A stretch of 64,000 nucleotides of DNA, from assembly GCA_964016885.1 (NCBI GenBank), contig OZ024749.1:17236001-17300000 (forward strand). Reading direction: 5' to 3'. A program made the translations under genes and the position numbers. Positions 15,001 to 16,304 of this stretch are shown piece by piece. This DNA is from Eledone cirrhosa (taxonomy: Eukaryota). Numbering within the stretch: the stretch's first letter is position 1; each line of letters starts with the position of its first letter. The notes beneath the pieces were generated by a model, which saw nothing but the letters and a program-made list of their open reading frames with translations, had not been told where the DNA came from and ran no database searches.

Positions 15001-16067
15001 CTCATGTGCTTTTTCATAAATACACATGAAGGCGAACTAGCCAGTTTTAGAATTCCCTTTTTCGGATTATACTACTGTGAGAGCCCTGGTTTCTGTTGAG
15101 CTCTGCTGATGAATGAAATCCAACCGTGACCATCTCCACTGAAAGTTTTCATGAAATAGTCTTTTAAGACTATACAGAGCATTTGATGTTATTCCAAATT
15201 GAAGGATAAGTGTTTCAAACTGTATTTTATCATGAGTTAAAGGTCTATAGATTTTTCCCTGGATTTTACTAAATTCTGTGGATGAATTTATATCCTGATT
15301 CTCTTTTGAGATGAGTTTGAGTTATTTTTCCTAAATCTTTCGTTAACTACTTTTCCCATCTTGACGTTATAGTCGCATATATGTTATAGAATGCCGTTAG
15401 CTTCTTGCTAAAACAATCTCTATACCTTTCATTTATATTTATACTCGGATTCTTTTCCTAGAGTGCTTAAACTATCTGTGACTAATCCCGGTTTTTTTCA
15501 TAAAAACTGTGATAATTATTGCTATTTTGCTGAACTCCTTTGTAGAGTTTTTTTCAGAATGTATTTGACTGCTATTTCTTGTAAATAAACATTCACTTCC
15601 ATCCTGACGTCACTAGCCCCGTTTTTTCCTCATGTGCTTTTTCATAAATACACATGAAGGCGAACTAGCCAGTTTTAGAATTCCCTTTTTCGGATTATAC
15701 TACTGTGAGAGCCCTGGTTTCTGTTGAGCTCTGCTGATGAATGAAATCCAACCGTGACCATCTCCACTGAAAGTTTTCATGAAATAGTCTTTTAAGACTA
15801 TACAGAGCATTTGATGTTATTCCAAATTGAAGGATAAGTGTTTCAAACTGTATTTTTATCATGAGTTAAAGGTCTATAGATTTTTCCCTGGATTTTACTA
15901 AATTCTGTGGATGAATTTATATCCTGATTCTCTTTTGAGATGAGTTTGAGTTATTTTTCCTAAATCTTTCGTTAACTACTTTTCCCATCTTGACGTTATA
16001 GTCGCATATATGTTATAGAATGCCGTTAGCTTCTTGCTAAAACAATCTCTATACCTTTCATTTATAT
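1..16067 (+). repeat. Tandem array of a 628-bp unit (25 full copies plus a ~364-bp partial copy; continues beyond the left edge), one hammerhead ribozyme per unit
   Basis: TGTGAGAGCCCTGG starts at 1, 630, 1258, 1886, 2515, 3143, 3771 ... 15076, 15704 (period 628; 629 in units 1, 4 and 9 because of an extra C in GAATTCCC). Other differences seen: T>C at 6556, A>G at 11878, an extra T near 15855. The track shows no ORF inside the unit. The array ends at CTTTCATTTATAT and fuses into (TA)n. Confidence 0.98.
25..105 (+). ncRNA. Type I hammerhead ribozyme of the 628-bp unit (repeated 26 times; last copy 15728-15808)
   Basis: Stem I GCTCTG(25-30)/CAGAGC(100-105); core CTGATGA(31-37); stem II ATGAAA(38-43)/TTTCAT(72-77) with a 28-nt loop; GAAA(78-81); stem III ATAGTCT(81-87)/AGACTAT(92-98); cleavage triplet AUA(97-99), predicted cut after nt 99. 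All conserved core nucleotides and all three helices are present. Confidence 0.92.
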
Positions 16068-16304
16068 ATATATATATGTATATATATGTATGTATATATA
16101 TATATGTATATATATATATATATATATATATGTATATATATGTATATATATGTATGTATATATATACATATATATATATATATATATATATACATACATA
16201 TGCGTGTGTGTGTGTGTGTGTGTGTGTATGTGTGCGTGTATGTGTATATATGTTTATTTAGTTATGTATCTTTGTGTGTATATATATGTATGTATATATA
16301 TATA

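What the first reader, a model, noticed from the sequence alone, without database searches (positions are those of the whole stretch)
15704..16100. Extreme homogeneity plus a retro-insertion-like right end suggests a single rolling-circle concatemer
Seen: over about 25 copies I find two substitutions (6556, 11878) and four homopolymer indels. The terminal unit is not degenerate, and it stops cleanly at TTTCATTTATAT and merges with (TA)n, as the PLE and HHR elements in this window do. Known: old satellites usually have diverged edge monomers. Inference: the array may come from one event of rolling-circle reverse transcription of a circular RNA primed at a (TA)n break, or from very recent DNA-level amplification of such an insertion. 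The paralogous flank near 57900 shows microsatellite at the equivalent position and no array, which may represent the empty site.
Basis: partly seen in the sequence, partly recalled or inferred. Interest (0 to 1): 0.72.

Follow-up and report, generated by a model that had tools for sequence, protein, structure and literature searches.

The report
Hammerhead retrozyme array with a daughter
This 18.5-kb array is one very young copy of a known kind of protein-free jumping repeat whose units each carry a predicted self-cutting RNA; it was likely seeded by reverse transcription of a small RNA circle into AT-repeat DNA, likely lengthened later by DNA recombination, and likely produced a daughter copy elsewhere in the genome.

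Summary
The counts and the clean right end are confirmed. The array is 29.5 copies of a 628-bp unit, starts 2,484 bases before the window and has (TA)n at both ends. Every complete unit holds a type I hammerhead that Rfam missed, with compensatory changes across subfamilies. It belongs to a dispersed family of thousands: 91 of 97 loci picked by internal sequence end at the same base in (AT)n, 5' ends vary, and 8 of 30 unselected copies exceed one unit. This is a non-LTR retrozyme with Penelope-type insertion marks.

One rolling-circle event for all 29.5 units is unlikely: the length is an extreme outlier, and one substitution recurs 20 units apart. That allele occurs elsewhere only in one sister locus, fixed in 3 of 3 units, which fits a daughter made from one monomer. 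One inverted insertion fits a multimeric template better. The paralog near 57900 matches only the right flank and is not an empty site. Cleavage, expression, circularity and the helper enzyme are untested. The scan already reported other retrozyme families of this kind in this genome.

The parts
1..16067 (+). Tandem array of the 628-bp retrozyme unit (it continues 2,484 bases left of the window; 29.54 units in all)
15440..16067 (+). 3'-terminal unit in the register of the fixed end (629 bp because of one extra T)
   Evidence: unit u1
15728..15808 (+). Type I hammerhead of the last unit: helix I 15728-15733/15803-15808, core CUGAUGA 15734-15740, helix II 15741-15746/15775-15780, GAAA 15781-15784, helix III 15784-15790/15795-15801, predicted cut after 15802. 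The same motif is in all 29 complete units.
   Evidence: minimum-energy fold; motif scan; pair counts; coordinates
16056..16067 (+). Fixed 3' end TTTCATTTATAT, inferred start point of reverse transcription
   Evidence: 91 of 97 loci end here in (AT)n; 7,967 genome matches of end plus (AT)n against 218 for the control
16068..16304 (.). (TA)n-rich target microsatellite, right side
11878..11878 (+). A>G allele (monomer position 208), in 2 of 29 units here and in 3 of 3 full units at G000:C1:146.95 Mb, nowhere else
20420..21113 (+). Second hammerhead family (473-bp unit, 1.5 copies) with the same 3' end; comparison element, not part of the array
18636..20405 (-). 5'-truncated Penelope-like element joined head-to-head to the second family without (TA)n between; a candidate source of the enzyme
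55983..59927 (.). Two old paralogs (82-85%) of the right flank only; not an empty site

Best explanation
The array is a very young insertion of a non-coding hammerhead repeat (non-LTR retrozyme), likely seeded when a Penelope-like reverse transcriptase primed on a cut (TA)n tract and copied a likely circular 628-nt RNA for a few rounds, and likely lengthened afterwards to about 30 units by DNA-level duplication. Shown: hammerhead fold with covariation, fixed 3' end in (AT)n, variable 5' ends, copies longer than one unit, no protein. Inferred: transcription, self-cleavage at unit position 364, ligation to a circle, Penelope-like enzyme acting in trans, and later unequal exchange. The array has likely served as a source: one unit carrying 208G would have been excised as a monomer and copied 3.4 times at the C1 locus.
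For: Hammerhead topology is the minimum-energy fold. In 25 distinct family sequences 98% of cells pair, and 3 helix I pairs change on both sides although helix I was outside the search pattern; helix II swaps U-A for C-G (7 against 13). Fixed end: 91 of 97 loci. 855 terminal ends against 302 internal junctions in the young subfamily. In 30 unselected copies 16 pass the predicted cut site once, 8 exceed one unit and 5 pass the cut site twice, with no 5' end at the cut site. Subfamily alleles are nearly always fixed within a locus (e.g. 262T in 26 of 26 multi-copy loci), and 16 locus-private alleles are fixed in all copies of their locus. L067 and L135 have three full units with only private alleles, so they were born as multimers. 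208G exists in 5 units genome-wide; among the youngest loci 618T was seen only here and at the C1 locus. Later expansion: length outlier, expected about 1e-5 such arrays even in the youngest subfamily; period-2 shared alleles in L053, L054, L134, L252. A>G makes up 9 of 35 array-fixed alleles against 12 of 168 single-unit alleles (P=0.003), a hint of an RNA stage. Penelope-like elements with open 784-786-codon frames target the same (TA)n tracts.
Against: L131 has a classical twin-priming geometry (inverted arm ends at 300, forward arm starts at about 301-304, 2.6 units in all), which is simpler on a linear or multimeric template. The unit shows no significant similarity to the 3' region of the one Penelope-like family aligned in detail (score 36 against a shuffle maximum of 53; only 17-nt BLAST hits to the loci), and none of 30 loci with the shared end had a Penelope frame upstream, so the helper is not identified. 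The C1 locus could also be a 1.4-unit linear copy expanded later, or its 208G an editing mark. The A>G excess is weak when compared with T>C only (P=0.06). The hammerhead has an A-U or U-U first pair in helix II and folds only moderately better than shuffles (z -2.0); 8 of 9 predicted Xenopus retrozymes did not cleave in vitro, and an anole Penelope element inserts from uncleaved RNA in vitro. The geometric length model assumes constant processivity.
Confidence: 0.6

Rival explanations
1. The whole 29.5-unit array is one rolling-circle reverse-transcription product of an unusually processive run, with the repeated 208G coming from a switch between edited and unedited circles or from later gene conversion.
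For: Only 2 distinct substitutions in 18.5 kb and an undegenerate terminal unit. The youngest subfamily has a heavy tail of lengths with almost no divergence: 1 copy at 25 loci, then 2,2,2,2,3,3,4,4,5,9,30. 208 is an A>G change, the class enriched among array-fixed alleles.
Against: Expected number of such arrays about 1e-5 under the fitted per-round continuation of 0.62. The same substitution twice among three events has a chance of about 0.003. The other long arrays L046, L132 and L134 also carry partly shared alleles.
Confidence: 0.2
2. The template is a linear, uncleaved read-through transcript of a tandem locus; the enzyme starts internally at a unit end, as shown in vitro for an anole Penelope element, and no circle is needed.
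For: L131 geometry. Internal initiation from unprocessed RNA and no need for hammerhead cleavage in vitro (PMC11167929). Multimeric retrozyme RNAs exist in axolotl (PMC7229834).
Against: No ordered series of unit variants shared between loci was seen in 68 loci; one site (185G) is polymorphic in two related loci but in opposite order. The C1 locus is fixed for a minority allele of this array. In L328 and in 8 of 12 loci of the second family the inverted arm copies a region that the forward arm also covers. The ribozyme has been kept intact across subfamilies down to 69-77% identity.
Confidence: 0.2
3. The copy number and the repeated allele are partly an assembly artefact, for example two haplotypes of a shorter array joined end to end.
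For: 18.5 kb of nearly identical units is close to typical accurate long-read length (recalled); 4 of 7 variant events are homopolymer indels.
Against: Both junctions are of the family type; 208G is independently present at the C1 locus; head-to-tail joints occur in raw reads. None of this fixes the number of units.
Confidence: 0.1
4. A non-autonomous rolling-circle DNA transposon (Helitron-like) or an ordinary satellite made the concatemers without an RNA stage.
For: Such elements also give head-to-tail arrays with one fixed end (recalled).
Against: No 5'-TC or 3'-CTRR end and no terminal inverted repeat pair at the two unit ends; conserved hammerhead on the strand whose 3' end is fixed; 5' truncations and 5' inversions.
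Confidence: 0.02

Closest known systems
Metazoan non-LTR retrozymes (Cervera and de la Pena 2020, PMC7229834: passages and parts 2 and 4 of 6 read; Li, Clavereau and Pollet 2026, bioRxiv 10.64898/2026.07.22.740005: parts 1-3 of 5 read)
   Same: Non-coding, low-GC tandem units each with a type I hammerhead; monomers to long multimers (up to 62-mers in coral, 300 units in Li et al.); circle-templated reverse transcription by Penelope-like elements is their proposed route; Li et al. also invoke later unequal crossover.
   Different: 628 bp is above the 150-450 bp of Cervera but inside the 51-972 bp of Li. Helix III is 7 bp, not the usual 1-2 bp of animal type I motifs (PMC4209133 passages), so it should not need a dimer fold. 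In the parts read, neither paper maps a fixed 3' end, (TA)n targeting or allele inheritance between loci. No homology to a pLTR was found here.
EN+ Penelope-like elements (Craig et al. 2021, PMC8557442: passages read; Frangieh et al. 2024, PMC11167929: parts 1-2 of 4 read; Cervera and de la Pena 2014, PMC4209133: passages read)
   Same: Partial tandems, 5' truncation, inverted 5' copies, microsatellite targets that hide target-site duplications, a hammerhead in the terminal repeat, reverse transcription starting inside the RNA.
   Different: No reading frame. One dominant 3' end; inversions are rare in this family and end at different places (300, 578), so no fixed 30-40-bp tail was seen.
Non-autonomous Chlamys elements such as MRC1 (PMC8557442 passage)
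   Same: Non-autonomous Penelope-type elements with multicopy head-to-tail insertions.
   Different: Those resemble their autonomous partner at the 3' end, and Chlamys elements mostly lack canonical hammerheads; here the hammerhead is present and the partner unknown.

Membership tests
Non-LTR retrozyme | Type I hammerhead in each of at least two consecutive tandem units | tested here: met
   29 complete units with no variant in the motif; fold; covariation. Rfam gave no hit.
Non-LTR retrozyme | No protein, no LTR structure, GC below 50% | tested here: met
   Longest stop-to-stop frame 84 aa; GC 211 of 628; head-to-tail units only. PBS and PPT were not searched for separately.
Non-LTR retrozyme | Dispersed, mobile family co-occurring with Penelope-like elements | tested here: met
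   1,373 hammerhead-pattern matches, control 0; Penelope-like elements with open frames present.
Non-LTR retrozyme | Self-cleavage of the RNA | not testable with these tools
   Needs in vitro transcription.
Non-LTR retrozyme | Expression as linear and circular monomer RNA | not testable with these tools
   No RNA run was listed.
Non-LTR retrozyme | Sequence relation to a Penelope pLTR (found for 24 of 57 Xenopus families by Li et al.) | tested here: inconclusive
   No significant match to the families sampled; the genome holds more families than were compared.
Penelope-type insertion | Fixed 3' end, variable 5' truncation, partial tandems | tested here: met
   91 of 97; 5' starts spread over positions 1-599 in 138 loci.
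Penelope-type insertion | Microsatellite target | tested here: met
   TA-rich flank on the 3' side in 125 and on the 5' side in 115 of 138 loci (some of these loci were selected by their 3' end).
Penelope-type insertion | Inverted 5' copy and a tail between two fixed start sites | tested here: inconclusive
   Inversions at L131 and L328 end at 300 and 578; the neighbouring family does show a second fixed site at about 389-396.
Autonomous Penelope-like element | RT plus GIY-YIG reading frame | tested here: not met
Helitron-like element | 5'-TC and 3'-CTRR ends or subterminal inverted repeats (recalled) | tested here: not met
   End sequences; repeats.

The most novel reading that the evidence does not exclude
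This array is a live source locus caught in the act: a single unit carrying a minority allele was cut out by its two hammerheads, circularised and copied 3.4 times round into a new site, and A-to-I marks laid on such circles are fixed in daughter arrays. That would be allele-level genomic proof of the monomer-circle bottleneck that the retrozyme and Penelope models propose, and a record of a retrozyme insertion turning into a satellite.
Probability: 0.4. Interest if true: 0.62.

Novelty: new member of a known kind. Interest (0 to 1): 0.42.

Why it matters
The copying step from RNA circle to tandem DNA is proposed, not shown, in the retrozyme and Penelope papers read here. This family gives a defined test system: a 628-nt unit, a mapped start point 264 nt downstream of the predicted cut, a known target, and a probable parent-daughter pair told apart by one base. 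It also shows how a retro-insertion can grow into a small satellite. The class itself is known, and the scan has reported similar families in this genome.

Tried and rejected
Rfam found nothing at gathering level in 14000-64000 or at E<=10 in two units; my first hammerhead regex paired the wrong GAAA and missed the motif. No RNA holder was listed among sequencing runs; this says nothing on expression. From contigs the youngest allele 412G looked absent in other samples; raw reads showed it in about 16-17% of reads in three runs, so I dropped that inference. RAD reads cannot genotype this locus. Empty-site test: no match of the left 14 kb to 52-64 kb. Search for the autonomous partner: no frame upstream in 30 loci with the shared end, no direct fusion of this family to the Penelope frames tested among 23 loci with non-TA 5' flanks, no significant alignment to one 3' region. 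Pfam and PDB gave no significant hit for the 785-codon frame; its Penelope-like label rests on RT and GIY-YIG-like motifs read by eye, a weak match to a GIY-YIG protein in the window and Atlas neighbours. Four older loci were dropped before the A>G count (64 of 68 kept). The 18 extra single-unit loci were not added to the length statistics because multi-unit neighbours had been skipped. Paper searches listed no description of this family or of allele tracing between retrozyme loci; subscription journals, Repbase, Dfam and all supplements were not seen and may hold it.

Full report
OBSERVATION. The window opens inside a tandem array of a 628-bp unit. The last unit ends at TTTCATTTATAT (16067) and runs into (AT)n. 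The left end lies 2,484 bases before the window, again in (TA)n; the array is 18,551 bp or 29.54 units. Positions below are in a monomer numbered so that 628 is the fixed end (window 993-1620 is one such unit).

THE UNIT IS A HAMMERHEAD REPEAT. The longest stop-to-stop frame is 84 codons and Rfam gave no hit. The plus strand nevertheless folds into a type I hammerhead as its minimum-energy structure: helix I, CUGAUGA, helix II with a long loop, GAAA, a 7-bp helix III and AUA before the predicted cut after 15802, monomer position 364. The fold alone is only moderately better than shuffles (z -2.0). A pattern for the core and helix III matches 1,373 places in the genome against 0 for the control. 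In 25 distinct sequences 98% of helix I and III cells pair, and three helix I pairs change on both sides although helix I was not in the pattern (related copies inflate such counts). Helix II swaps U-A for C-G, and its first pair is A-U or U-U. The motif persists in monomers down to 69-77% identity.

THE FAMILY. The unit is dispersed (2,111 candidates, 39 scored). Of 97 loci picked by internal sequence, 91 end at the same base followed by (AT)n; the six exceptions end at 217, 330, 543, 582, at 624 without (AT)n, or run into Ns. 5' starts are spread from 1 to 599 in 138 loci. The young subfamily has 855 terminal ends and 302 internal junctions; with older subfamilies the shared end occurs 7,967 times against 218 for the control, and most of 30 sampled loci belong to this family. 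Among the first 30 terminal ends in genome order, 16 copies pass the predicted cut site, 8 exceed one unit and 5 pass the cut twice; the mean length is 508 bp and none starts at the cut. Two loci have an inverted 5' arm (L131, L328). Head-to-tail joints are present in raw DNA reads of three runs. These are the marks described for Penelope-like insertions (PMC8557442 passages), and such elements with open frames share the (TA)n targets here.

CIRCLE OR LINEAR MULTIMER. A monomer cut at both ends would give at most 264 bases, so longer copies need a ligated circle, an uncleaved multimer or scar-free template jumps. For a monomer stage: subfamily alleles are almost always fixed within a locus, 16 private alleles are fixed in all copies of their locus, and no ordered series of unit variants is shared between loci (68 loci). 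L067 and L135 have three full units with only private alleles, so they were born as multimers. The allele 208G exists in five units genome-wide: 2 of 29 here and 3 of 3 at G000:C1:146.95 Mb. That locus also shares 618T, which among the youngest loci examined was seen only in these two. A read-through transcript of three consecutive units of this array could carry 208G once at most, so a single excised unit copied round 3.4 times is the simplest account. A 1.4-unit linear copy expanded later, or editing at 208, cannot be excluded. A>G is 9 of 35 array-fixed alleles against 12 of 168 single-unit alleles (P=0.003; against T>C only P=0.06; 64 of 68 loci), a weak hint of RNA editing; I had noted the spectrum and tested it after reading earlier notes of this scan. 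Against a pure monomer circle: in L131 the inverted arm ends at 300 and the forward arm starts at about 301-304, which is simpler on one multimeric RNA, and an anole Penelope protein inserts from uncleaved RNA in vitro (PMC11167929). I put a circular monomer at about 0.65.

ONE EVENT OR LATER GROWTH. In the youngest subfamily the copies per locus are 1 at 25 loci and then 2,2,2,2,3,3,4,4,5,9 and 30. With the fitted continuation of 0.62 per round the expected number of 30-copy arrays is about 1e-5; the model assumes constant processivity. The same substitution in two units 20 apart has a chance of about 0.003 among three events. Eight of 15 loci with three or more full units, this one included, carry alleles shared by some but not all units, several with period 2, as unequal exchange gives. 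So the array was most likely seeded by a short retro-insertion and then expanded in DNA, recently enough that its ends carry no substitution. One very long run (0.2) and a mis-assembled copy number (0.1) remain open without long reads.

THE PARALOG. The right flank matches 56739-57855 and 58707-59927 at 84-85%, but the 14 kb left of the array match nothing in 52-64 kb. It is an old partial duplicate, not an empty site.

COMPARISON. It works like, and on the testable features is, a non-LTR retrozyme (PMC7229834; bioRxiv 10.64898/2026.07.22.740005). Both papers propose Penelope-driven mobilisation and state it as a hypothesis; PMC4209133 already proposed circles as the source of head-to-tail tandems. 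Differences are the larger unit, the long helix III and the lack of a detected pLTR relative. Seven paper searches listed no account of this family; supplements, Repbase and Dfam were not seen. The scan had no note on this sequence or place but many on other retrozyme families in this genome with the same reading; these are unchecked notes, not support.

VERDICT. Real feature; new member of a known kind. The parent-daughter allele pair is the part worth a bench test. Interest 0.42.

Noticed in passing
window 20420-21113 (+) and L178-L189: A second hammerhead family (473-bp unit, 1,641 search candidates) with the same TTTCATTTATAT end. 8 of 12 loci have an inverted arm ending at about 389-396, a second fixed start site (a ninth has a short inverted piece); partial units almost never start upstream of its predicted cut site.
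   Followed up: partly
window 18636-20420: A 5'-truncated Penelope-like element on the minus strand is joined head-to-head to the second family within 15 bases and without (TA)n, as if two different RNAs were primed from the two ends of one break. One case only.
   Followed up: partly
L242:3512-5866, L243, L241: Penelope-like family with open 784-786-codon frames, a 350-bp terminal repeat, two alternative 3' ends about 140 nt apart and a hammerhead-like motif with a long loop II.
   Followed up: partly
L031, about 400-1400 bases left of the array's left end: Another (TA)n-inserted element whose end reads as a type I hammerhead with a U in place of the first core C (by eye); related ends flank L144, L145 and L204.
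   Followed up: no
L031-L033 (about 5-30 kb left of the window): Young (97-99% identical) direct and inverted cluster of a second Penelope-like family with a 555-codon frame and a hammerhead with a 2-bp helix III.
   Followed up: partly
L295-L314: 6 of 20 copies of the youngest subfamily start at unit positions 346-350, inside helix III just past the predicted cut, which suggests a reverse-transcriptase pause in the ribozyme.
   Followed up: no
unit position about 167-174 (window about 1159-1166): A TGACGTCA palindrome (CRE-like, label recalled) is kept in 12 of 16 older full monomers; possible promoter element.
   Followed up: no
window 41399-43282 and 62922-64000; L035: C2H2 zinc-finger repeat frames (84-bp period); the array sits in a zinc-finger gene cluster.
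   Followed up: no
window 34451-37150 (+), paralog 51721-53655 (-): LINE fragment with endonuclease, RT and PHD-like domains, 899 codons open.
   Followed up: no
window 21198, 24348, 37803, 48999, 50605: Further hammerhead-like motifs with short helix III in other repeats.
   Followed up: no
L248: A 2.6-unit copy in which both full units share a private 31-bp deletion.
   Followed up: no
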